Assembly: GCA_964399335.1 (NCBI GenBank)
Contig: CAYNQI010000006.1
Coordinates: forward strand, 34,005 to 50,124
Origin: an uncultured Thermoplasmata archaeon
GTDB taxonomy: Archaea > Thermoplasmatota > Thermoplasmata > Halarchaeoplasmatales > Halarchaeoplasmataceae
Reading direction: 5' to 3'
Length of the DNA stretch: 16,120 bases
Part shown: in pieces, positions 1,715 to 16,074 of the stretch
Layout: each line of letters starts with the position of its first letter
How positions within the stretch are numbered: position 1 is the first letter of the stretch
Translations under genes and position numbers: made by a program
Notes under the pieces: generated by a model
Seen by the model: only the letters and a program-made list of their open reading frames with translations
The model's database searches: none
Told to the model about the DNA's origin: nothing

Positions 1715-3853
1715 TCAAGCCCGTTTCATCTCTCTTTCAACCTGCTTCTCATCATATCCAAAAGGAGACAACATCTCATCAACCACCCGGTAAAAGTATT
1801 TTGAATAAAAATCTCTATCATAATGTTCCACATCACTGCCTTCGATCTTGACTTTCTCCCGGTAATGTTTACTTTTCTGATCAGTGACTATATATCTTAC
1901 GTATTCTCCGGGATGGACAGGGATATCTTCATCTTGGTATTGAAGTAGAGCGGCTTTAGTTTCTATAAGATTGCTGTACTCCTCTGCCTTCTTGGAAACT
2001 GTCTTTGAGAAGTACAGTTCTTTAAAATCGACTTCTTCCCTTTTCAATTGTATGAAATCTTTTTTTATTAAATCCATTGCTTCTTCAACTTTTTCTTCCA
2101 ATTCATCTAGGTTCCGAGCATCTTTCATGCTTTCCAACACTTTCCTCTGGACTTTTTTAAAGAATTTCGGAGTATCTTTACGCCTAGCATGTATACCTCG
2201 CATCTCGGTTTCTCCCTCTAAAACTCCATAGTACCGGTTAGCCACTCCCAAACCATCCGATTTACTGGGAAGAAAAACGATCCATCTATAAACCCCTTCT
2301 TTTTCGAGTAAAATACTTGTTTCATTTTCCACATCTTCGATCAATACATCTAATTTCTCTCTCTCACCCTTCAACCAAAGAGAATCTACTATCCCATGGA
2401 TCAACTTGTAGCCCATCTCTTGAGCTATATCCGCGGCTGTTATCAGTATATCTCTTCCGTAAGCGGTAACACTTTCATGAACTTCTATATTACTGAATCT
2501 AGCCTTTTTATAACCCGTATAACCAAAACACGTAACTAACAACCACTTCAGCGTATCGGCCCGTTTAGAAAAGCGTTCCCCCTTCATACTTTTGTATCTC
2601 TGCCGACGCTGGATCAGTGGTGAAACTACCTTCGGTATGAGTCCACGGCGTCGATCACATACTTTATAACCCAACTCCGGAACCTTATGAAACTCCCCAC
2701 AGTCACATCCAATGGTCTCAGGTGACAAATTGTACTTATCTATTATAGATGGATACATACTGGCGAAATCTAATTTAAGGACGTTGAAATGGACCCCCAT
2801 CTCAGGTTCAAAAATATGTCCACCTCTATCAGCTTTCAACAACTGCTCGGCACTTTTAAACCTTTCAGATATATTCCTTTTCCACGGTACTAGGTAACCA
2901 TCATCCATGGCACATTCAAGTTCCATGGCATCGATGGCGGTTCCGGGGCTCCTCCTGGCGAGTTTCTGGAGAGGGATCTTAGAAAGTCTAGATATCTCTA
3001 TGAGCCCATCAAGACCTCCCTCACGATACAGGAATGAATTCTGCACATCGATATGGACCCTACCTTTCAAGTGGTGAGAAGGGGGTTTGTAGATGACTCT
3101 ACCGTAGGAAACATGGGATGATCCTTCCTTACGCGCATGAATAGACCGTTCCCGACCTAGTTTCAAATCTTCGTTATTCAACCTAGCCCGATGAAATAAA
3201 TAAGGTATCAAAAAGGGATCTCCGTTGGAAGTCAATATCACGTCCGGATCTTTGATCTCTATCTCCCTGTTGAGTTCTTTGATCATCTCTTTTTCACTCC
3301 CAACCATAACTGAGTCTCCCAACTTTATTGAAGATATCTGGTCATCCATGGCCGGGATACCTTTCGTTTCGAAATCCACTGAAAGTGATGCCTCCCGAAG
3401 AGATGGAAGAGAATAATTCACATCGGTGTCTTTCTCTAACTCTATCCATCCATCGTTCTTATCGACCAGTGAAAAAGGTCGTATGCCCTTTTCTATAAGG
3501 TACCTCTGTCCCAACGGGATATCCACATTATAGAACTCATAATTATCATATCCTTCAAAAAAATGCAGAGCATCCGCTTGTTTTCTTGGATCGAAGACAT
3601 GACCTGGAGATATCTCTAAAACTTCCTTTTCTACTTTATCATATATGGTGGTTTTTTTAGAAACGTAACTCGTTTCGAAGTCCATATCTTGATAGAATTC
3701 TTCGATCTCTCCGTAGTTTCCGTCCGAAGCTTCGACGTAAAAAAGTGGGTTATAATCTTCGAAGACCTTGTAGGTTCTATCAATAGTCTTCATCCAGAGA
3801 ACCATCTTTTTCCTTTTCAGGTCCGGATAAATATCCAATATCCATCCTTTCAT
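1715..3853 (-). CDS. polB2: Family B DNA polymerase, archaeal PolB2 (Dpo2) group
   Basis: Motif A DFASMYPSII, motif B KWLLVTCFGY, motif C HGIVDS (PolB2-type, in place of YGDTDS), degenerate exonuclease motifs, and linkage to iRadA and the small helical gene. Likely start is the ATG at 3853 (MKGWILDIY), not the track's TTG at 3871. Confidence 0.9.
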   Translation of the reverse strand: MKGWILDIYPDLKRKKMVLWMKTIDRTYKVFEDYNPLFYVEASDGNYGEIEEFYQDMDFETSYVSKKTTIYDKVEKEVLEISPGHVFDPRKQADALHFFEGYDNYEFYNVDIPLGQRYLIEKGIRPFSLVDKNDGWIELEKDTDVNYSLPSLREASLSVDFETKGIPAMDDQISSIKLGDSVMVGSEKEMIKELNREIEIKDPDVILTSNGDPFLIPYLFHRARLNNEDLKLGRERSIHARKEGSSHVSYGRVIYKPPSHHLKGRVHIDVQNSFLYREGGLDGLIEISRLSKIPLQKLARRSPGTAIDAMELECAMDDGYLVPWKRNISERFKSAEQLLKADRGGHIFEPEMGVHFNVLKLDFASMYPSIIDKYNLSPETIGCDCGEFHKVPELGYKVCDRRRGLIPKVVSPLIQRRQRYKSMKGERFSKRADTLKWLLVTCFGYTGYKKARFSNIEVHESVTAYGRDILITAADIAQEMGYKLIHGIVDSLWLKGEREKLDVLIEDVENETSILLEKEGVYRWIVFLPSKSDGLGVANRYYGVLEGETEMRGIHARRKDTPKFFKKVQRKVLESMKDARNLDELEEKVEEAMDLIKKDFIQLKREEVDFKELYFSKTVSKKAEEYSNLIETKAALLQYQDEDIPVHPGEYVRYIVTDQKSKHYREKVKIEGSDVEHYDRDFYSKYFYRVVDEMLSPFGYDEKQVEREMKRA

Positions 3854-4094
3854 CTTCCACCTTCCTTTCAAGTCTAGCTAAGGTCTTTTGATGTTCGAGT
3901 AATATCGAGATAAATAATGATTCCATAGGATCTGGATTGGCTTGATATTGGGCGGCGGAACCGTGTTTCTTTGCGTTGAGCATGAGTTCTTCGAAATACT
4001 TCCTTTCCTCTTTTCTAAGAGCCCTTTTGAACTTCGACCACTCTGAGATTATTTTATCGAGTTCCTCCCTGTAAGTTGGCACACTTTTTCCCAT
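3780..4094 (-). CDS. Small alpha-helical PolB2-associated protein (arCOG07300-like)
   Basis: MGKSVPTYREELDKIISEWSKFKRALRKEERKYFEELM pattern, position between iRadA and polB2, and GGAGGTGA SD 5 nt before the ATG at 4094. Confidence 0.8.
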   Translation of the reverse strand: MGKSVPTYREELDKIISEWSKFKRALRKEERKYFEELMLNAKKHGSAAQYQANPDPMESLFISILLEHQKTLARLERKVEDERMDIGYLSGPEKEKDGSLDEDY

Positions 4095-4886: not shown

Positions 4887-5694
4887 GTTCTCTTTTTGGA
4901 AGGGATACAACGCTAATGATGTTTTCGTAGAATTCAGGCATTATTTCGAAGACTATCAACATTAGAATGATCAAAAGTATCACTGAGCCGATTTTAGCTA
5001 TTTGGTTGTGAGCCGTATGGAATGAAGTTATATTCTCATAGGTCAGATAGATGATCATAACGTTCCTGAGAACGTTTGCGATGTATATGGTAGGGACGAC
5101 CACTAACAGACTTTTTATCTTTATTCTTCTTTCAGCATCGGTAGAATATATCAAAGCGCCTCCAGCTGCGATAGCTTGAAGACCGGTGCATGCCAGTATG
5201 ATATTGATATTGGAACCTACGATAGCAACTCGTATATTCTCGTAGCTGGTCCTGTAAAAGAGAGATGTTTCTCCGTACATTATCGGACCTACGGTGAATT
5301 CGTATCCCATCAGATCAAGCAGCATATTTGTATGATCGGAAACTATCCTGATCAGGTACCCCGAAATGATAGGTATTCTTTGTACACCAAAATAGATCAA
5401 CATCCCTATTGAGATCCCACCGGCTAAAAAACGCATCACTTCCGGGTCTTCATCCCATTCTTTCGATAAGTATTCGTTATAAGCAAAATAAAGAAAAAGC
5501 GGGAGTGTGATTATACATAAGGCGGCGTTCACATAATCAGATATCGATATAAAATAAGGTGCTTCTGTGACCCAAAAAACACTTAGAAGTGCAAAACCTA
5601 GCATCCGAAATTGATGTTTCTTATACTCTGATATAAACCCAAAGAGAAGAGTGAAGATGCCGATCCATAAAATTATCTCAGAGTACATGATCAA
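4855..5694 (-). CDS. artA: Archaeosortase (A-like; exosortase/archaeosortase family)
   Basis: Multi-TM protein with catalytic Cys in IILACTGLQAIA, Arg in ANVLRN and downstream His (HNQIAK). Subtype is less certain than family. Start is TTG 5694 or ATG 5688. Confidence 0.8.
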   Translation of the reverse strand: MIMYSEIILWIGIFTLLFGFISEYKKHQFRMLGFALLSVFWVTEAPYFISISDYVNAALCIITLPLFLYFAYNEYLSKEWDEDPEVMRFLAGGISIGMLIYFGVQRIPIISGYLIRIVSDHTNMLLDLMGYEFTVGPIMYGETSLFYRTSYENIRVAIVGSNINIILACTGLQAIAAGGALIYSTDAERRIKIKSLLVVVPTIYIANVLRNVMIIYLTYENITSFHTAHNQIAKIGSVILLIILMLIVFEIMPEFYENIISVVSLPKREPTRQKQQKQP

Positions 5695-5789
5695 TTTTTC
5701 ACACCTATTACTTTGTCTTTGTTAAAATAACTAAATAAGGTTATAGATAAATATATGGGTGTTATCTTTTTGCAATCTAAGTTCGGTTT

Positions 5790-5806
5790 GGAAAACATAT
5801 ATATAT
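5790..5806 (+). promoter_or_regulatory. BRE/TATA promoter of the stand-alone 5S rRNA gene
   Basis: Purine-rich GGAAAA followed by ATATATATAT, ending ~23 nt before G5830. Confidence 0.55.
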
Positions 5807-5829
5807 CACATCCAATTAACACTTTTAAC

Positions 5830-6062
5830 GAGCAACATGACGGCCATAGCGGTGGGGTAACACCTGGTCTCATCCCGAACCCAGAAGTTAAGCCCACCCG
5901 CGTTCTCTGTTGTACTGTGGTGCGCGAGCCCACGGGAAGCCTAGGTCCTTCGCGGACCCCTGGATCGATGGCTTAGGTTAGGAGCCTGGCTCTCTTCGGG
6001 GAGTAAGGTAAACCTAACTGTTTGAAGGCTACTTTCGACCCTTGGCCCGCTGTCAGTTGCTC
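5830..6062 (+). rRNA. rrf: 5S rRNA gene with a ~100-nt insertion (~5941-6040) and an extended helix I
   Basis: Canonical archaeal 5S elements: GACGGCCATAGCGG, CCCGAAC, GAAGTTAAGCCC, GTACTG...GCGAG...GGGAA. The helix I 3' strand GCTGTCAGTTGCTC lies at 6049-6062, about 100 nt later than normal. Exact mature ends are uncertain. Confidence 0.93.
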
Positions 6063-6070
6063 ACTTATAA

Positions 6071-6080
6071 TTCTTTTTTT
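6071..6080 (+). terminator. Oligo-T terminator after 5S rRNA
   Basis: TTCTTTTTTT 8 nt after the helix I 3' strand. Confidence 0.55.
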
Positions 6081-6168: not shown

Positions 6169-7404
6169 TTATTCTTTGATCTCGCCAAACCCTATAAGAT
6201 GCCATTTTCCCTTGATCCTTCTACTGATAGCTATCCTCTGTCCAATTTCTGCACATACAGCTCTTTTCAAAGTAACAGCGGCTTCAGTACCTCTTGCAGA
6301 ACTAACAACTCCTACAGTCGTTGCAGTTCCAACTGTCAGCATCAGAGGTTCTCTAGTCTTTATCTTCTCGACTTCTTTGTCCTTTTCCATACCTACGACT
6401 TTATCGAGTAGATTAACTTCCATGACAAAATCTTCCTGAATAGGAGGTAATTCACCGGGATATCCTACAACGTGCCCTACTAAAGAATCCGATTTTGTAA
6501 GATTCGGATCTAATTTGGTCCCGATACCGATCAATCCACCAGGTCTAGCCTTTTCTAGGGAGATGGCACCTGAATTTAGAGATTCGACTTGTGTGACTAT
6601 CTTTTGCCATTTAGTTTCGCCATGTTCCTCGATTTTATTCCCGGGCGATATCTCTATTTCGTCACCGATTTTAAGTACTCCTCTTGATAATGATCCTCCG
6701 ATGACTCCGCCTTTAAGGTTCTTGATACTTGTACCTGGTTGATTTATATCAAATGATCTAGCAACTGTGATTCTAGGTGATGCATCAGTTTCTACTTCCG
6801 GTGTTGGTATGTATTTTTGTATGGCCTCGATCAATATGTCTATGTTAACGTCGTGATGAGCCGATACCGGAATGATCGGTGCGTCTTCAGCTACTGTACC
6901 TTTGGTAAATTCTTTGATCTGTTCATAGTTCTCTTTAGCTTTTTCTGAACTTACTAGATCTATCTTGTTTTGAACGATTATAACATTTTTTACTCCTGTG
7001 ATATCCAAGCCCATAAGGTGTTCTTGGGTCTGGGGTTGTGGGCATGGTTCGTTTGCAGCTATTATGAGTATCGCACCATCCATCATTGATGCACCCGAAA
7101 GCATTGTAGCCATCAAAGTTTCGTGACCAGGAGAGTCAACGAAAGAAACAGCTCTTAGAAATTCAGCCTCACCTTCGCATTTCGGACATTCTGGTGAAAC
7201 GGAATATGCTTCTACACCGTTACAATCTTTACACTTATAGAAGGCTGTGTCTGCATAACCCAATTTTATGCTTATACCACGTTTGGTTTCCTCTGAATGT
7301 CTATCCGTCCATTCCCCACTCAAGGCTTTTGTTAAAGTCGTTTTACCGTGATCGACGTGACCGACTAAGCCTATGTTAACCTCAGGTTGCTTTGGTACTT
7401 TCAT
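6169..7404 (-). CDS. eif2g: Translation initiation factor 2 gamma subunit
   Basis: [32 protein letters not shown] GTPase motifs and CxxC..CxxC zinc knuckle. ATG 7404 follows the S6e stop. Confidence 0.98.
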
Positions 7405-7407
7405 CAA

Positions 7408-8292: not shown

Positions 8293-8637
8293 ATGGCAAA
8301 TGGAAAAGATAATAATGAATACGAAGAAGCTATATCGAGTTATTACGAAGGGCGTGGAGTCAGTTCCATAATATCATTAAAAGTAGATACTATGGAAGCT
8401 GATACTATTGCTGAAATGCTATCAGGTTTTGACAATATTGAGGATGTTTTTTTGGTGACTGGAGATGTAGATATCATAGTCAAAGCAAGGTTCAAAGATT
8501 ATGATCATATGAAACAATTTCTTTTGAAAAAAGTTTCTCAATTAGAAGGTGTTGATAATCTGCACAGCCAGATGATAATCACCACGTATAAAGAAAGGAA
8601 TCAGGTAATAGCTGTGGAAGAATCTTTAGAAGACTAA
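8293..8637 (+). CDS. Lrp/AsnC ligand-binding-domain-only protein (no HTH)
   Basis: IEDVFLVTGDVDIIVKARFKDYDHMKQFL RAM-domain signature; no N-terminal HTH. Confidence 0.85.
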   Translation: MANGKDNNEYEEAISSYYEGRGVSSIISLKVDTMEADTIAEMLSGFDNIEDVFLVTGDVDIIVKARFKDYDHMKQFLLKKVSQLEGVDNLHSQMIITTYKERNQVIAVEESLED

Positions 8638-9608
8638 TGGATTTCATCCATTTTCCAATCTTCCCATTTTTTAATTTTTTTTGATATCAAGAATTCGATA
8701 GGTGTCAATATCTTCGTCGTATAATTACTGCTATCATCTAAAGCTATCCTTGGACATGCTGTGTTTACTGCACAATCCCATTGAAAATCATCCACTAGGT
8801 CTGGTTCAACTTCATCGAATTCAGCTATTATAAGGTCATTTTTAGCTTCTTTAAGCTCATCAAAAACTCCTTCTCTCCTTTGTCCTTGTTTTTGAGACAA
8901 GATGACTCCTACTTTCTCAGCTTCCTCAGATACGTTTATAGTGGCAAATCTTTTACGCAGTAATCTATCCATTTCGTTCTCAGTCGACGTAAATTCACCA
9001 GTGACGGGGTTGAACACAAAGACTTCTTTATTTAAAGACAATGAAAGTCCCAATGGGTGAAATCTGCCGGTTCCTATGTACAAGTGAGTATCTGCATCAG
9101 TAACTTTAGTTGAGTAATTACAACCCAATACCTGACCTGGATATTTTATTCGTTGGTCCCCCTTTCCAATTATAGTCTCAAATCCTTCTTCTTCAAGTAT
9201 TTCCTTCATCTTCTTTAGATGATCCATATGTTGAATAGATGCGTAAAGTGCAACTTTACCCTTCAATCTCTTGAATAATTTGTTAGGTGGATCAGTCCAT
9301 CTACTGCTTCTACCCTCTAGATATACCACGGGATATTCAGTGTCAAGATTTGGGATCTCAGAATGTCCGATATGAACCAAAAGATCAGCATCACCGATAT
9401 CTAATGGTAGATCACATGCACCATAACAGGTCCCTCCCCATAAAGTAACATCGACACCGTATCTTTCAAGTTCTTTTATTATCTTGTGAGATTTTCTTCT
9501 TAGACCATCTGGAAGCTGCAGTAAAACCTTTTCAGCATTTGATTCCTTGATCTTCTTTTTAACTGGTTGAATATCGATCTCGAATTCGTCCAATTTTAAT
9601 ATACTCAT
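8634..9608 (-). CDS. dph2: Diphthamide biosynthesis enzyme Dph2
   Basis: LLQLPDGL, TCYGACD, GQVLGC and TACPRIA motifs with the three Fe-S cysteines. Confidence 0.95.
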   Translation of the reverse strand: MSILKLDEFEIDIQPVKKKIKESNAEKVLLQLPDGLRRKSHKIIKELERYGVDVTLWGGTCYGACDLPLDIGDADLLVHIGHSEIPNLDTEYPVVYLEGRSSRWTDPPNKLFKRLKGKVALYASIQHMDHLKKMKEILEEEGFETIIGKGDQRIKYPGQVLGCNYSTKVTDADTHLYIGTGRFHPLGLSLSLNKEVFVFNPVTGEFTSTENEMDRLLRKRFATINVSEEAEKVGVILSQKQGQRREGVFDELKEAKNDLIIAEFDEVEPDLVDDFQWDCAVNTACPRIALDDSSNYTTKILTPIEFLISKKIKKWEDWKMDEIH

Positions 9609-11546: not shown

Positions 11547-12932
11547 TTATTTCAGAATCTTAATACTCTCTTCGATAGCTTCCTTTACGTCCCCATCCAC
11601 TTCAGTCTCCGCTATCTTATCAAATTCTTCAATCTCGTTGGTCGTATCTATCCTATCACCGACTTCTTCTATCTTTTCTGCCAAACCTTTGATAGCTTCA
11701 ACTTTAACCCACTTGTCATTGTCGTAGAGCGCATCTCTCAATTTCCTTATTATAGATTTAGCTCTGTTATCGCCAACTTCTTTTAGATCGATACATCTTA
11801 GAGCTTCTACAACTTTCTGGCGTATCTTCCATCTATTATCATCTACAAATTCTAGAAGTTGAGGTATTGATCTTGTATCTCCCATCTTAGCTAGGCTTAC
11901 AGACAAAACAATTTCTTTAACCCCATAAACATCATCAATCTTATCGTAAACAATATTTTTGTGTTCATCTGGTGCCTTTGATAAAGAATCTGAGATCGCC
12001 CATAGGACCCTTGGATGTTCTTCATATTCTAATCCTTCGAGTAAAACTTTTGTAGATAGTTCTGTACCTATTTCTCCTAAGGCCTTAACTGCTGATGATC
12101 TGATTTCTGGCTTTTCAGAATCTAATTTCCTTTTAATAAATTCAACTGTGTCGTCATCACCGATCCTACCTAAACTTTCCAGACTCACTTCAACCACATA
12201 CTCGTTGGAATCATCTAAAGTTTCTACTAGTTTTTGTTCAGCATCTCTATAATTCAATTCACCGAGTGCCTTTGCAGCTTCCTCTCTTATCCTCCAGCTT
12301 TCATCCTTTAGTGCCTCTATAAGTAGTTGGCAGGAATCTTCGTCTCCGATAGACGCCAATCCCTGGACTGCAGCCTCTCTAACAGTTTTTTCCCCGTCCT
12401 TTATTTTTTGTGCCAAATGTGGAAGTATCTCATCACCATCGAGTTTTATGAGAGCTTTGATGACTTCTTCCTCTACGGAGATATCATCGATATGCCCCAT
12501 CAATATCTCGTGGGCTTTTTCTCCACCTATCTCACCCAAACTTTCCACAGCTTTCTGTTTGATCTCGATATCTTCTTCTTTTTCCAAAAGCTCGTCTAGA
12601 GCTTTCACTGCTTCTTCGTTCCCGATGTGACCCAGGGCTATGGCTGCATCGTGTCTTATCACCCAGGAATCATCTTTTAAACATTCTATCAGAGGTTCTA
12701 CACCTCTTTGGGAGTCGATATGACCGACGGCCAAAATCACGTTGGACCTAACGGTCTCTTCATCTTCATCATCTAAAGATCTTAACAGGGGGCCTAATGC
12801 AAGTTTATCGCCTAATATACCCAGTGCTTTAGCACTCTCGGCCCTTTCTTTGGTATCTCCAGCTTTCAACAATTCAACGAGACCGTCGATATCCTCCTCT
12901 TCTTTCAACTCAACAATCTTTTTCATAGGCAT
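11547..12932 (-). CDS. HEAT-repeat (PBS lyase HEAT-like) solenoid protein
   Basis: About a dozen ~31-aa repeats such as LIEALKDESWRIREEAAKALGEL; strongly acidic. Confidence 0.9.
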   Translation of the reverse strand: MPMKKIVELKEEEDIDGLVELLKAGDTKERAESAKALGILGDKLALGPLLRSLDDEDEETVRSNVILAVGHIDSQRGVEPLIECLKDDSWVIRHDAAIALGHIGNEEAVKALDELLEKEEDIEIKQKAVESLGEIGGEKAHEILMGHIDDISVEEEVIKALIKLDGDEILPHLAQKIKDGEKTVREAAVQGLASIGDEDSCQLLIEALKDESWRIREEAAKALGELNYRDAEQKLVETLDDSNEYVVEVSLESLGRIGDDDTVEFIKRKLDSEKPEIRSSAVKALGEIGTELSTKVLLEGLEYEEHPRVLWAISDSLSKAPDEHKNIVYDKIDDVYGVKEIVLSVSLAKMGDTRSIPQLLEFVDDNRWKIRQKVVEALRCIDLKEVGDNRAKSIIRKLRDALYDNDKWVKVEAIKGLAEKIEEVGDRIDTTNEIEEFDKIAETEVDGDVKEAIEESIKILK

Positions 12933-12934
12933 GG

Positions 12935-14809
12935 TCAATTTATCCTCTTTTGAAGCTCTTCTTTCAATATCTTACTAACCTTTTCACCATCAGCTTTACC
13001 CCTCAATTCCTGCATGATCACGCCCATGAGAGGTCCTAAAGACGACATACCCCTTTCTTCTACGAAATCCTTACGATCATCCAAAACTTTTACAACCGCA
13101 TCTCTGACATCCTGATCATCCACTTTCTCCAAACCAGCAGATTCCATAGCTTCATCTATGTTCTTACCTGTTGTCAATTCCTTCAAGATGTCAGAAATAC
13201 CCTCTTTGGCAAATTCACCTGCTTCCAGTTTCTCGAATATCTGGAAGAGTTGGTCATCGGATATCTTTTCGAGTTCATGATCGTCCCTTTCGAGTTCTGG
13301 ATAGGTGTGGAGGAATGTGTTGGCTACCGTAGATGGGTTACCATGCTCTTTAACTAAATCTTCGAACAGGATATCGTAACCCTTTTTGAATAGCTGTTCA
13401 CTCTGCTGCCTATTGATACCATACTCCTTCTGGAATCTTTTTATCCTTTCAGATGGTTTTTCTGGAAGGTCATCCTTTAATCTTTTTAACCGTTCTTCAC
13501 TTACCGATATAGGGGGAATATCAGTCTCTGGATACATCCTTGCTTCACCTGATAACGGTCTCAAGAATGTGGAACTCCCATCTATTTCAGCCCTTCTTGT
13601 CTCTTCAGGTACACCTGCGAATGCCATCTCCGCTCGCTCAGCAACTTTTTCTAGAGCTTCATTTGCAGTTCCTTCTTTTGCAGCAACCAAAGCGAAAGCA
13701 TCTTTTTTCTTTAATTCCAACTCTTTTTCTATAGAATCAACTTCCTCCTCTGTTATACCAAATTTTGGAAGTTCATCACTGTGGAAAATACCCTTCACTC
13801 CGGCCTTCTTAGCATAATCTGCCATCTCAGGTCCCAATAGTGCTTCACCATCTTCACCTCTGAGAGTACCATGGAATCCTTCCAATCTAAGAGCATATAC
13901 TCCCTTACCACTGTTCAAACTACCTTTGATTATCCCGCTGCCGGTTTCTTCGAAAAGGTTTGTAACATCGTGGACTTCTTTATCGACTTGGGCTTTTCTG
14001 CCTTTCAACTTATCAGCTATTTCGACCAGCCTGAGCTGACGGTCGATCTCGTTTTCAACGTACTCTGGAAGCATAGATAGATCTTGGACACCTTTCATCT
14101 CAACTCTAGCTCCTTTCTTGATAGATACGTTCAGATCTTCACGTATTGTTCCTAACCCTCGCTTCACCTGTCTGGTCGCTCTTAAAAGACCACCGAGCAT
14201 CTGAGCCACTTCTTTCGCTTCTCGAGGTGTATTCATATCGGGGCCGGTAGCCATCTCTATGAGCGGGATACCCAATCGATCTAGGCGGTAAACTTTCTCT
14301 TTCCCTTCTTTACCTATGTTTCGGGCGGCATCCTCCTCCAAACATATACTCGGAATAGTGATCTTTTTACCATCTATTTCCACTTCCCCATTTAAAGCTA
14401 TCAAAGAAGTCCTTTGGAATCCAGTGGTGTTGGAACCATCGATAACGATCTTTCTCATGAACTGTATTTCATCAACGATATCACTATTCAGCATAAGTGC
14501 CATCTTCAAAGCTATATCCAAAGCTTCTTCGTCGGGACCTTCAGGCGGTTCTTCGTCCATCTCTACTAAACAGGAGGAACTTTCAGGGGCTTGGTATCTG
14601 AAACGCAGCCCTTTCTGTGCTTCAAGAAGTGCGGCGGCGTCGATCTCACCCATCTCACTTGCCGTAGGTCTCAATTCTCGAGTTATCTCCATGTCAAAAT
14701 CGTCCACCAATTCTGAAGGACAATCGCAGAACAATTTCTTCGTATCTAACTGCTGGTGGATCTCAAGTCCAACTTTTAAACCCAGCTCTTCATAGTCCCT
14801 TTGTGCCAT
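12935..14809 (-). CDS. gatE: Glutamyl-tRNA(Gln) amidotransferase subunit E
   Basis: GLKVGLEIHQQLDTKKLFC, FMRKIVIDGSNTTGFQRT, RLDRLGIPLIE, RMYPETDIPP. AGGTGA SD 5 nt before ATG 14809. Confidence 0.98.
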   Translation of the reverse strand: MAQRDYEELGLKVGLEIHQQLDTKKLFCDCPSELVDDFDMEITRELRPTASEMGEIDAAALLEAQKGLRFRYQAPESSSCLVEMDEEPPEGPDEEALDIALKMALMLNSDIVDEIQFMRKIVIDGSNTTGFQRTSLIALNGEVEIDGKKITIPSICLEEDAARNIGKEGKEKVYRLDRLGIPLIEMATGPDMNTPREAKEVAQMLGGLLRATRQVKRGLGTIREDLNVSIKKGARVEMKGVQDLSMLPEYVENEIDRQLRLVEIADKLKGRKAQVDKEVHDVTNLFEETGSGIIKGSLNSGKGVYALRLEGFHGTLRGEDGEALLGPEMADYAKKAGVKGIFHSDELPKFGITEEEVDSIEKELELKKKDAFALVAAKEGTANEALEKVAERAEMAFAGVPEETRRAEIDGSSTFLRPLSGEARMYPETDIPPISVSEERLKRLKDDLPEKPSERIKRFQKEYGINRQQSEQLFKKGYDILFEDLVKEHGNPSTVANTFLHTYPELERDDHELEKISDDQLFQIFEKLEAGEFAKEGISDILKELTTGKNIDEAMESAGLEKVDDQDVRDAVVKVLDDRKDFVEERGMSSLGPLMGVIMQELRGKADGEKVSKILKEELQKRIN

Positions 14810-14814
14810 AGATA

Positions 14815-16074
14815 TCACCTGATCCTCCTTTCTGTGATCTCACCAGCGATATCACGTTTCATGATCTCATCCACATCTTCATCTAAAGTCAACGCCCACA
14901 TCAGTTTGGTTAAGGCGGTTTCTGGAAGCATATCACCACACGGTATAACTCCAGCCTCTATCAGTTTCCTACCGCTGGAATAAATATTATCATTAACGGT
15001 ACCGTATAAACATTGACTTGTCATGGCGACTTTTGTCCCATTGTCAATTATTTCTTTGATCACTGGTATAAGTTTAGTTTTGATATGTCCCAGCCCTGTA
15101 CCGGCTATGACGATACCATTTCCCTCACCAGCTTGGATCAACTCTTTTTCTGTCAAAGATGGACTTGAATAGATCAAAGATACCTCTGGATCGATAGAAC
15201 CGTATTTACCATATTCTCCATCTACTTTGGTGATATCTTCAGTGATCTTCATATCACCATCATGTGGATCTATGGTACCTACTGGCTCCGTATTTATCGA
15301 TCGGAATGCATCTCTTCTAGTGGTGTGCATCTTCCTTACCTTTGTGCCTTTATGTATAGCACATCTATCTTCGGAAAGAGATTCATGCATAACGACATAG
15401 ACACCGCTGAGGTCCGACTTAGCCACTTCGATAGCTGCTAACAGATTCAGATGTGCATCGCTTGAAGGTCTATCGCTGGATCGCTGGGAACCTACAAGAA
15501 CAACAGGTTTTGGAATGTCTTTCAACAAGAAGGATAGAGCCGCCGATGTGTAACCCATAGTATCAGTTCCATGTGCTATAACTACACCTTCAGCACCAGA
15601 ATCGAACTCTTCCAATACTTTGTCAGCTATCAACTCCCAATCATCGGGTTCTATGTCTTCGCTCAACTTACTGAACAAGACCTCGACTTTTGGATAACAT
15701 CTTTCTCCTATCTCTGGATTAGAATAAAGCATCTCTTCAGCGGACTGGGCTGGATGGACCGCTCCGGTATCATAATCAACATAACTTGCGATGGTACCAC
15801 CAGTGCCCAGAATAGACACTGATGGTTTGCTTTCATCGAGTTTGAATTTTTCTAATCGATCTTCAGTGGATTTTCTCTTTCTCTTTATCAATTCAACATC
15901 GGTATACTCATCTATTTCAATACCTATGTTATAACCATCTTCCCTCTTCAAATTTATGATCTCATCTTTACTGAAGCGATGATGTGGCATCAAAATCCCT
16001 TTATATATTTTAATGTCTTTTGTGACTTTTATCAAATCTCCGACTTCAACACCTTCAAGGAGTTCTTCTTTCAT
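14815..16074 (-). CDS. gatD: Glutamyl-tRNA(Gln) amidotransferase subunit D
   Basis: GTGGTIAS, HGTDTMGY, GSQRSSDRPSSD, VRKMHTTRRDAF and N-terminal GILMP...DGYNIG domain. Probable start is ATG 16074. Confidence 0.97.
   Translation of the reverse strand: MKEELLEGVEVGDLIKVTKDIKIYKGILMPHHRFSKDEIINLKREDGYNIGIEIDEYTDVELIKRKRKSTEDRLEKFKLDESKPSVSILGTGGTIASYVDYDTGAVHPAQSAEEMLYSNPEIGERCYPKVEVLFSKLSEDIEPDDWELIADKVLEEFDSGAEGVVIAHGTDTMGYTSAALSFLLKDIPKPVVLVGSQRSSDRPSSDAHLNLLAAIEVAKSDLSGVYVVMHESLSEDRCAIHKGTKVRKMHTTRRDAFRSINTEPVGTIDPHDGDMKITEDITKVDGEYGKYGSIDPEVSLIYSSPSLTEKELIQAGEGNGIVIAGTGLGHIKTKLIPVIKEIIDNGTKVAMTSQCLYGTVNDNIYSSGRKLIEAGVIPCGDMLPETALTKLMWALTLDEDVDEIMKRDIAGEITERRIR

What the first reader, a model, noticed from the sequence alone, without database searches (positions are those of the whole stretch)
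5941..6040. 5S rRNA with a ~100-nt structured expansion segment
Canonical 5S runs to GGGAAGC (5940) and resumes at ~6041. The insert folds by eye into (i) hairpin CUA-GGUCC/GGACC-UGG (5941-5963) and (ii) a long arm: UCGA/UCGA, UGGCU/GGCUA, GUUAGG/CCUAAC (5977-5982/6013-6018), CCU/AGG and GCUCUC-UUCG-GGGAGU with a cUUCGg tetraloop (5994-5999). Such extensive pairing argues for selection. The site is within 1-2 nt of the 108-nt Halococcus morrhuae insertion (104/105), but this genome appears to be a different lineage, suggesting an independent expansion at the same permissive site. I am not aware of a report for this group. Standard 5S models would probably truncate the gene.
Basis: partly seen in the sequence, partly recalled or inferred. 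Interest (0 to 1): 0.85.

Follow-up and report, generated by a model that had tools for sequence, protein, structure and literature searches.

The report
Oversized 5S rRNA with conserved arm
The only 5S ribosomal RNA gene of this salt-lake Thermoplasmata archaeon is about 229 nt long. It carries a conserved, folded 100-nt extra module at the site of the classic Halococcus insertion, and the same module is present in many uncultured families of its phylum but appears in no paper I could find.

Summary
The 5S core runs 5832-5940. A 100-nt insert (5941-6040) follows loop E, and the core resumes at 6041 (helix V 3' strand), closing helix I at 6049-6060. Rfam aligns only 5836-5955 and mispairs the 3' end.

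The insert folds into a short hairpin plus a long arm. Covariation supports it: 98% of cells pair in 21 family members, and 25 of 28 pairs show compensatory changes across families.

Every archaeal 5S found in the order (36 of 43 genomes) is expanded. The one normal copy lies on a bacterial contaminant contig.

A covariance model built without this family finds the window's insert (44 bits, E 8e-9). It finds one copy per genome in 65 of 151 genomes of the class, all-or-none by family, including three single-contig genomes. It also finds copies in other classes of the phylum.

The site matches the Halococcus insert, but models in both directions show no significant homology, so common origin is unproven.

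No paper on a Thermoplasmata 5S expansion was found. This scan has already noted the same module on other genomes. Verdict: a real new variant of a known kind, of moderate to high interest.

The parts
5790..5806 (+). Putative archaeal promoter of the stand-alone 5S gene: BRE-like GGAAAAC followed by a TATA-like ATATATATAT, about 26-42 nt upstream of the helix I start.
   Evidence: The motif GGAAAA(N)2-3TATAAATA/TATATATA stands at the same distance upstream in all family loci printed. Its promoter function is inferred, not tested.
5832..6060 (+). Complete 5S rRNA gene, about 229 nt, including the extended helix I (5832-5844 with 6049-6060).
   Evidence: Fold. Helix I pairs are 100% kept in 21 sequences, with two compensatory changes in the outer part (C-G to U-A). 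It is the only RF00001 hit in the genome.
5832..5940 (+). 5S core, 5' part: helix I 5' strand, helices II-IV, loop E, ending in GGGAAGC.
   Evidence: Rfam RF00001 scores 81 bits over 5836-5955, but the alignment is reliable only up to about 5940.
5941..6040 (+). 100-nt expansion module inserted between loop E and the 3' strand of helix V. The boundary is ambiguous by 1 nt because C5940 and C6041 are interchangeable.
   Evidence: Normal 5S genes of sister families have 9 nt here (GCNNGGAUC). This gene has 110 nt. CM R2, built without this family, matches 5940-6038 at 44.3 bits, E 8e-9.
5941..5963 (+). P1: short hairpin, CUA-GGUCC / GGACC-(CC)-UGG, with loop UUCGC.
   Evidence: Pair 5945-5957 changes G-C to A-U in one genus. 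Across families all 5 pairs show compensatory changes.
5965..6038 (+). Long arm made of P2 (5965-5973 / 6027-6038), P3 (5976-5982 / 6013-6019) and P4 (5984-5994 / 5999-6009), with a UUCG tetraloop at 5995-5998.
   Evidence: Within the family P3 and P4 are 100% paired, with 4 and 2 compensatory pairs. Across families 20 of the 23 pairs of P2-P4 have compensatory changes.
5974..5975 (+). 5' side (UA) of the conserved asymmetric internal loop IL1. Its 3' side is 6019/6020-6026 (UGUUUGAA).
   Evidence: The nearly invariant positions of the 55-sequence multi-family alignment cluster here: A5975, G5976, G6020, U6022, A6025, A6026.
6019..6026 (+). 3' side of IL1, YGYUUKAA. This is the most conserved sequence element of the module and a candidate docking site.
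   Evidence: It is not a canonical K-turn, because the would-be 1b G is U in about half of the families.
6041..6060 (+). 5S core, 3' part: helix V 3' strand CUUGG(CCC), then helix I 3' strand GCUGUCAGUUGC.
   Evidence: It aligns with CNNGGAUC-GCYGUCAG of normal 5S genes in the same class. Pairs 5909-6041, 5906-6044 and 5905-6045 are kept in 21 of 21 sequences.
6074..6080 (+). Run of 7 T, the likely archaeal transcription terminator.
   Evidence: Read directly. T-rich tracts follow the gene in most family loci. The function is inferred.

Best explanation
Window 5832-6060 is the genome's single, functional, independently transcribed 5S rRNA gene. A 100-nt expansion segment (5941-6040) is inserted on the 3' strand between loop E and helix V.

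The segment folds on its own into a short hairpin (P1) and a long three-helix arm (P2-P3-P4, UUCG-capped). With the two halves of helix V this should make a four-way junction that leaves the canonical 5S core intact, as was seen by cryo-EM for the Halococcus insert at the same site.

The module is inherited and under purifying selection. It is one homologous family present in many uncultured Thermoplasmatota lineages.

Inferred, not shown: it stays in the mature 5S and projects from the central protuberance. Its conserved asymmetric internal loop (UA / YGYUUKAA) would then serve as a docking site for a protein or for 23S rRNA.
For: Shown:
1. The core and closing helix I are recovered only if the insert is spanned.
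2. Covariation within the family: 98.3% of cells paired, 18 compensatory pairs, 0 of 500 shuffles as high. Across families, 25 of 28 pairs of the module have compensatory changes, with a covariation score of 0.577 against 0.233 shuffled and at most 0.175 slid (that alignment is fitted to the model).
3. It is the only archaeal 5S available. There is one RF00001 hit in this genome. Thirty-six of 43 genomes of the order have a 5S. Every copy whose 3' part is on the contig carries the insert, and those cut by a contig end match the expanded 5S up to the cut. The single normal copy lies next to a bacterial 23S on a 2.7-kb contaminant contig.
4. Three single-contig genomes of a sister family (G078, G161, G166) have one 5S each, and it is expanded.
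5. Held-out test of homology: CM R2, built only from other families, finds the window's insert at 44.3 bits, E 8e-9. It finds exactly one hit per genome in 65 of 151 genomes of the class, all-or-none by family, and hits in families of other classes (f44 12 of 13, plus f64 and f65).
6. The insert is single-copy in its own genome, so it is not a repeated mobile element.
7. A conserved BRE/TATA motif lies upstream and a T-run downstream.

From the literature: the Halococcus insert at the same site is retained in mature 5S and is visible on the ribosome as a four-way junction (PMC7812874, PMC7530397).
Against: This genome is an 80%-complete MAG in 212 contigs, so a second 5S cannot be strictly excluded for this organism.

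The junction topology is ambiguous within the family, and helix V is weak: 3 pairs around two pyrimidine-pyrimidine mismatches.

The function of the module is unknown. The conserved loop matches no motif that I could confirm.
Confidence: 0.8

Rival explanations
1. The 100 nt are an intervening sequence. They are transcribed but removed, either by splicing at a bulge-helix-bulge motif or by excision that leaves a fragmented 5S, so the mature ribosome carries a normal-sized or two-piece 5S.
For: The insert is flanked by near-identical pentamers (CUAGG 5941-5945, CUUGG 6041-6045). In this family these can pair with each other, and CGGG 5933-5936 can pair with CCCG 6046-6049. That gives a loose bulge-helix-bulge-like alternative (my inspection). 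Stepanov and Fox raise excision as a general caveat for unverified expansions (PMC7812874). No RNA data were obtained here.
Against: The loose alternative pairing is not conserved in other families (f4, f25 and f15 sequences). The interior of the module, including loop sequences, is conserved and covaries across families and classes. That is not expected for an ORF-less intron, where only the splice motif is constrained. The Halococcus insert at this site is retained (PMC7530397).
Confidence: 0.1
2. The expanded copy is a decaying or silent 5S pseudogene, and the working 5S is simply missing from the assemblies.
For: MAGs often lack rRNA genes, and this one is 80% complete. Stepanov and Fox describe 5S pseudogenes with insertions in some bacteria (PMC7812874).
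Against: The core is intact and scores 81 bits even when truncated. Compensatory changes occur in both the core and the insert. A conserved promoter motif is present. No normal archaeal 5S was found in 36 genomes of the order, and three single-contig genomes of a sister family carry only the expanded gene.
Confidence: 0.03
3. On the origin of the module: the Thermoplasmatota module and the Halococcus-type insert share one origin, by common ancestry or by lateral transfer between archaea of saline habitats, rather than being two independent insertions at a permissive site.
For: Both begin immediately 3' of loop E, after GGGAAA plus one nucleotide or GGGAAG plus one nucleotide. The sizes are similar (100-113 nt against 108-112 nt). 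The order of parts is the same: a short tetraloop hairpin, then a long arm. Short motifs resemble each other (GGCCUAGGUGCG / ..UUAAC against GGCYAAGUGCG / ..GUAAC). With the haloarchaeal model R3 the best non-self hits fall exactly on the inserts of L100 (19.2 bits, E 0.047) and L030 (10.1 bits). Stepanov and Fox already infer lateral transfer of the insert among haloarchaeal genera (PMC7812874).
Against: A profile HMM of the Thermoplasmata inserts gives no hit on 10 haloarchaeal inserts. CM R2 detects inserts from other classes of the phylum at 33-46 bits but scores haloarchaeal inserts at 9.1 bits or less, E 3 or more, which is in the noise. R3 gives nothing for the window. The arms differ in build: the haloarchaeal type lacks P2 and has extra distal helices.
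Confidence: 0.3

Closest known systems
Halococcus-type expanded 5S rRNA: the 108-nt insert between core positions 104.1 and 105 in Halococcus, Halalkalicoccus, Halomarina and Halodesulfurarchaeum (Luehrsen 1981; Stepanov and Fox 2021, PMC7812874; Tirumalai 2020, PMC7530397)
   Same: It is archaeal. The insertion point is the same, immediately 3' of loop E and before the helix V 3' strand. The size is similar and nearly doubles the 5S (about 229 nt against 231 nt). It has a two-arm layout compatible with a four-way junction. It is the only 5S type in the genomes that carry it.
   Different: The phylum differs (Thermoplasmatota against Halobacteriota). No significant sequence or structure match was found in either direction. 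This module has a long basal helix P2 and the conserved loop UA / YGYUUKAA. The haloarchaeal arm has other helices. This module spans many families and more than one class, whereas the haloarchaeal type is known from four genera. Retention in the ribosome has been shown only for Halococcus.
Bacterial 5S expansion segments: 14 further structural types in Clostridiales, Thermoanaerobacterales, Halanaerobiales and Alteromonadales (PMC7812874)
   Same: They are self-folding helical insertions that leave the 5S core pairing intact, and they are often missed or truncated by annotation.
   Different: They sit at other insertion sites and are mostly shorter (from 13 nt). They are scattered in single strains or small clusters and often coexist with normal 5S copies or pseudogenes. 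Here every copy in whole families is expanded.
rRNA expansion segments of eukaryotes and Asgard archaea (ES9 and ES39 of the large-subunit rRNA; Penev 2020, PMC7594248)
   Same: They are lineage-wide, vertically inherited helical additions on the ribosome surface, attached through junctions that do not disturb the common core.
   Different: Those are in 23S/28S rRNA, not in 5S.

Membership tests
5S rRNA (Rfam RF00001) | The covariance-model score reaches the gathering threshold of 38 bits. | tested here: met
   81 bits, E 3e-16, over 5836-5955. It is the only hit in the genome.
5S rRNA (Rfam RF00001) | Helix I closes the molecule, and three arms (helices II-III and IV-V) carry loops C, D and E. 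| tested here: met
   Helix I forms between 5832-5844 and 6049-6060 only when the insert is spanned. Helices II-IV pair in 97-100% of cells across 21 sequences.
Prokaryotic 5S expansion segment (sensu Stepanov and Fox 2021) | Extra residues (13 nt or more) lie inside an otherwise conserved 5S core, judged against close relatives without them. | tested here: met
   There are 110 nt between GGGAAG and the helix I 3' strand, against 9 nt in normal 5S genes of sister families.
Prokaryotic 5S expansion segment (sensu Stepanov and Fox 2021) | The insert folds as an independent module without disturbing the core pairing. | tested here: met
Prokaryotic 5S expansion segment (sensu Stepanov and Fox 2021) | The expanded gene is functional: it is the only 5S type in the cell, or it sits in a normal expression context. 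| tested here: met
   No normal archaeal 5S was found in the 36 genomes of the order that have a 5S. Single-contig genomes of a sister family carry only the expanded gene. A conserved promoter motif is present. This window's own genome is incomplete.
Prokaryotic 5S expansion segment (sensu Stepanov and Fox 2021) | The insert is present in the mature 5S rRNA of the ribosome. | not tested
Notes from other agents of this scan report reads for relatives, but I did not check them.
Halococcus-type insert (structural type at 104.1/105) | The insertion lies immediately 3' of loop E, before the helix V 3' strand. | tested here: met
   Haloarchaeal expanded 5S from metagenomes reads GGGAAA-A-[insert]-..GGUUC-GCCGCC. 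The window reads GGGAAG-C-[insert]-CUUGGCCC-GCUGUC.
Halococcus-type insert (structural type at 104.1/105) | The insert is homologous to the haloarchaeal insert in sequence and secondary structure. | tested here: not met
   nhmmer gave no hit. R2 scored haloarchaeal inserts at 9.1 bits or less, E 3 or more. R3 gave no hit on the window, and its best hit in the phylum was 19.2 bits, E 0.047. R2 does reach inserts of other classes at 33-46 bits. A weak or absent match does not prove an independent origin.
Archaeal bulge-helix-bulge intron | A conserved motif of a 3-nt bulge, a 4-bp helix and a 3-nt bulge places both boundaries in the bulges. | tested here: not met
   This was checked by inspection only. 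A loose version (4-nt bulge, 5-bp helix with wobble pairs) can be drawn for this family. It cannot be drawn for the f4, f15 or f25 sequences.
Kink-turn (L7Ae-binding) motif, considered for internal loop IL1 | A 3-nt bulge is followed by tandem sheared G.A and A.G pairs, with G at position 1b and A at 1n. | tested here: not met
   A at the 1n position (5975) is nearly invariant. However, the loop has 4-5 nt, 2n is U, and the would-be 1b G (6024) is U in about half of the families.

The most novel reading that the evidence does not exclude
The module is an ancient, phylum-level ribosomal expansion of Thermoplasmatota that was lost in several cultured lineages. Its invariant asymmetric loop would dock a lineage-specific protein or the A-site-finger region of 23S rRNA. 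The 'unique' Halococcus insert would be a diverged, laterally acquired copy of it. On this reading the best-known oddity of archaeal 5S rRNA is an offshoot of a widespread, overlooked ribosome feature.
Probability: 0.2. Interest if true: 0.75.

Novelty: new variant of a known kind. Interest (0 to 1): 0.62.

Why it matters
Large 5S rRNA expansions in archaea are described only for four haloarchaeal genera. The 2021 survey covered cultured RefSeq genomes and found none outside Halobacteriales. Here the same site carries a different, strongly conserved 100-nt module in whole families of uncultured Thermoplasmatota: 65 of 151 sampled genomes of the class, plus other classes.

This matters in four ways:
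- It makes an expanded 5S a common archaeal ribosome feature rather than a curiosity.
- It gives a deep comparative data set (compensatory changes, an invariant internal loop) for asking what such a module does on the central protuberance.
- It poses a testable question about recurrent use of one permissive site versus lateral spread.
- It flags a systematic annotation error, because Rfam-based pipelines call a truncated 120-nt gene.

Tried and rejected
- Reference sequence: I looked for the published H. morrhuae sequence in supplements and in old 5S compilations. None were held. I used haloarchaeal expanded 5S genes recovered from metagenome contigs instead. Their taxon is inferred from the core sequence and the 108-112-nt insert, not from a name.
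- Plasmid search: this gave only normal haloarchaeal 5S cores with no insert match.
- First covariance model: R1, built on the RNAalifold consensus of a MAFFT alignment, had only 13 pairs and was uninformative. I replaced it with the hand-structured R2.
- Regex extraction of 3' ends failed twice before I anchored it on complementarity to helix I.
- Rejected: a repeated mobile element, because the insert is single-copy in the genome.
- Rejected: an assembly chimera, because the same structure occurs in more than 60 independent assemblies.
- Rejected: a normal second 5S in relative G014, because it is a bacterial 23S-5S contaminant.
- Rejected: a K-turn reading of the conserved loop.
- Rejected: a conserved bulge-helix-bulge intron.
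- Rejected: a halophile-specific adaptation as the sole explanation. Most carrier families lie outside the halophilic order. Their habitats were not available to me.

Full report
**What is in the window.** Rfam finds a single RNA gene in the 16-kb window: a 5S rRNA at 5836-5955 (81 bits). Its last 15 model positions are forced onto CCUAGGUCCUUCGCGG with several non-pairs. Reading the sequence shows why.
- The canonical core runs to GGGAAG-C (5934-5940).
- The true helix V 3' strand (CUUGG, 6041-6045) and helix I 3' strand (GCUGUCAGUUGC, 6049-6060) lie 100 nt further on.
- Folding 5832-6062 gives the standard three-armed 5S plus two extra hairpins (-94.8 kcal/mol, z -2.9).

The surrounding genes are archaeal: aIF2-gamma, GatE, Dph2 and family B DNA polymerase. 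There is no 16S or 23S in the window, so the 5S is a stand-alone gene. A BRE/TATA-like motif (GGAAAAC-ATATATATAT, 5790-5806) lies upstream and a T7 run (6074-6080) downstream. The upstream motif is conserved in position in all relatives I printed.

**Anatomy of the insert (5941-6040).**
- P1 is a short hairpin (5941-5963).
- A long arm follows:
  - P2: 5965-5973 with 6027-6038.
  - Internal loop IL1: UA 5974-5975 opposite UGUUUGAA 6019-6026.
  - P3: 5976-5982 with 6013-6019.
  - A small loop: A5983 opposite AAA 6010-6012.
  - P4: 5984-5994 with 5999-6009, capped by UUCG.

**Is it selected?** The full 231-nt stretch is found in 20 of 23 sampled genomes of the same family, across ten genera, at 84-99% identity.
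None of 500 column shuffles reached the observed covariation, and slid controls paired 29-48%.
- Within this family one detail is ambiguous. The latter has one G-C to A-U double change in one genus.
- In other families the sequence just before helix I (CNNGGAAC) is clearly the partner of the helix V 5' strand, and the residues right after GGGAAGC are used in P1.

**Is it the working 5S?**
- The genome has one 5S hit. It is an 80%-complete MAG.
- In its order (one family, 43 genomes) 36 genomes have a 5S. Every copy whose 3' part lies on the contig carries the insert, and those cut by a contig end match the expanded 5S up to the cut.
- The single normal copy, in G014, sits 48 nt after a bacterial 23S on a 2.7-kb contig and is contamination.
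- Three single-contig genomes of a sister family have exactly one 5S each, and it is expanded.
- The insert occurs once in the window's genome, so it is not a dispersed repeat.

**Who is it?** A motif from the insert hits 34 GTDB species records. Nearly all are titled Thermoplasmata or Thermoplasmatota MAGs from soda-lake and hypersaline samples, including Candidatus Halarchaeoplasma, Haladaptatiplasma, Natronoplasma and Saliniplasma.

**How far does it reach?** Other families of the class carry an insert of 95-113 nt at the same place with the same layout and shared motifs (GGCYUAGGUNCG, GGUGAACC, CGYUUKAA), while others have an ordinary 5S. I built a covariance model (R2) from the inserts of the other families only, with a hand-set structure P1-P4.
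- It finds the held-out inserts of the window's family at 39-49 bits, and the window's at 5940-6038 with 44.3 bits, E 8e-9. This is an independent demonstration that all these inserts are one homologous module.
- In 151 genomes of the class it gives exactly one hit in each of 65 genomes, all-or-none by family. Carriers are f1, f4, f8, f15, f16, f20, f22, f24, f25, f27 and f29. No hit was found in 16 other families, including those with many closed genomes and two or three normal 5S copies.
- In a phylum-wide sample it also finds the module in families of other classes: f44 12 of 13, plus f64 and f65 (pattern search).
- On an alignment of 51 inserts fitted to the model, 25 of 28 pairs show compensatory changes. 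That alignment leans towards the structure by construction.
- The positions that hardly ever change lie in IL1.

**Comparison with what is known.** Stepanov and Fox (2021, PMC7812874) catalogued 89 expanded 5S rRNAs of 15 types. In archaea they found only the 108-nt Halococcus-type insert between core positions 104.1 and 105, "immediately adjacent to loop E", in four haloarchaeal genera. They searched RefSeq genomes of cultured strains, and the text mentions neither Thermoplasmata nor metagenomes. [quoted passage not shown]

To compare sequences I recovered 14 haloarchaeal-type expanded 5S genes from metagenome contigs. They have an insert of 108-112 nt right after GGGAAA and a total length of 227-231 nt. 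The site is the same as in the window. Both types begin with a tetraloop hairpin followed by a long arm.

Homology, however, is not demonstrable:
- A profile HMM of the Thermoplasmata inserts gives no hit on the haloarchaeal inserts.
- R2 scores them at 9.1 bits or less, E 3 or more.
- The reciprocal model R3 finds held-out haloarchaeal inserts at 89-124 bits. In the phylum it reaches at best 19.2 bits (E 0.047, rough) on one insert, and nothing on the window.

I therefore do not file the module as a member of the Halococcus structural type. It works like it (same site, same kind of junction), but it is a distinct type. Common origin remains possible; I put it at about 0.3.

**Rivals.**
- An excised intervening sequence is the main alternative, at about 0.1. 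A loose bulge-helix-bulge-like pairing can be drawn for this family but is not conserved in others. The interior of the module is far more conserved than an ORF-less intron needs to be.
- A pseudogene or an assembly artefact is very unlikely, given the covariation, the promoter and the closed genomes.

**Novelty and earlier notes.** Full-text searches found no paper on an expanded 5S in Thermoplasmata.

This scan has already flagged the same module on other genomes. Those notes agree on the site and on the phylum-wide spread, both of which I re-derived independently. Some call it a relative of the Halococcus insert, which my two-way model tests do not support. Some report it in RNA samples, which I could not check.

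No claim in this report rests on the unpublished genome G125. It has a normal 5S and no match to the module.

**Verdict.** This is a real, selected 100-nt expansion of the only 5S rRNA gene. It is a new structural variant of a known kind of feature, widespread in an uncultured archaeal phylum and missed by standard annotation.

Noticed in passing
window 5826-5836 with 6056-6066: Leader and trailer extend helix I: GAGCAAC pairs with GUUGCUC. The outer pairs show compensatory C-G to U-A changes in one relative (G017). Either the mature 5S has an unusually long helix I or this is a processing stem.
   Followed up: partly
window 5941-5945 and 6041-6045; L131, L140 and other haloarchaeal loci: The insert begins with a pentamer (CUAGG) nearly identical to the one that follows its end (CUUGG). 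The haloarchaeal-type inserts are flanked by an exact AACUG...AACUG. This may be a duplication scar, or a requirement of the junction.
   Followed up: partly
L066 (G014 contig C155, 1-446): A relative's MAG contains a 2.7-kb contig with the end of a bacterial 23S and a bacterial 5S. This is bin contamination that would otherwise pass as a 'normal' second 5S.
   Followed up: yes
L054 (GenBank JBKHKA010000002.1, 176 kb): The record is titled Candidatus Aenigmatarchaeota but carries the family-type expanded 5S of these Thermoplasmata. The taxonomic label of that MAG is probably wrong.
   Followed up: no
window 5691-5933 (-): An 80-aa ORF on the opposite strand overlaps the 5S gene. It is almost certainly spurious but could be called by gene finders when the 5S is truncated or missed.
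   Followed up: no
window 6169-7407 (-), 8634-9608 (-), 12935-14818 (-), 1715-3871 (-): Ordinary archaeal housekeeping genes flank the 5S: aIF2-gamma, diphthamide synthase Dph2, GatE and family B DNA polymerase. A 463-aa HEAT-repeat protein lies at 11547-12938 (-).
   Followed up: partly
G287 contig C128, 5912-6009 and 8448-8545: One genome of another class (family f65) has two copies of the module 2.5 kb apart. This suggests two expanded 5S genes, or a tandem arrangement.
   Followed up: no
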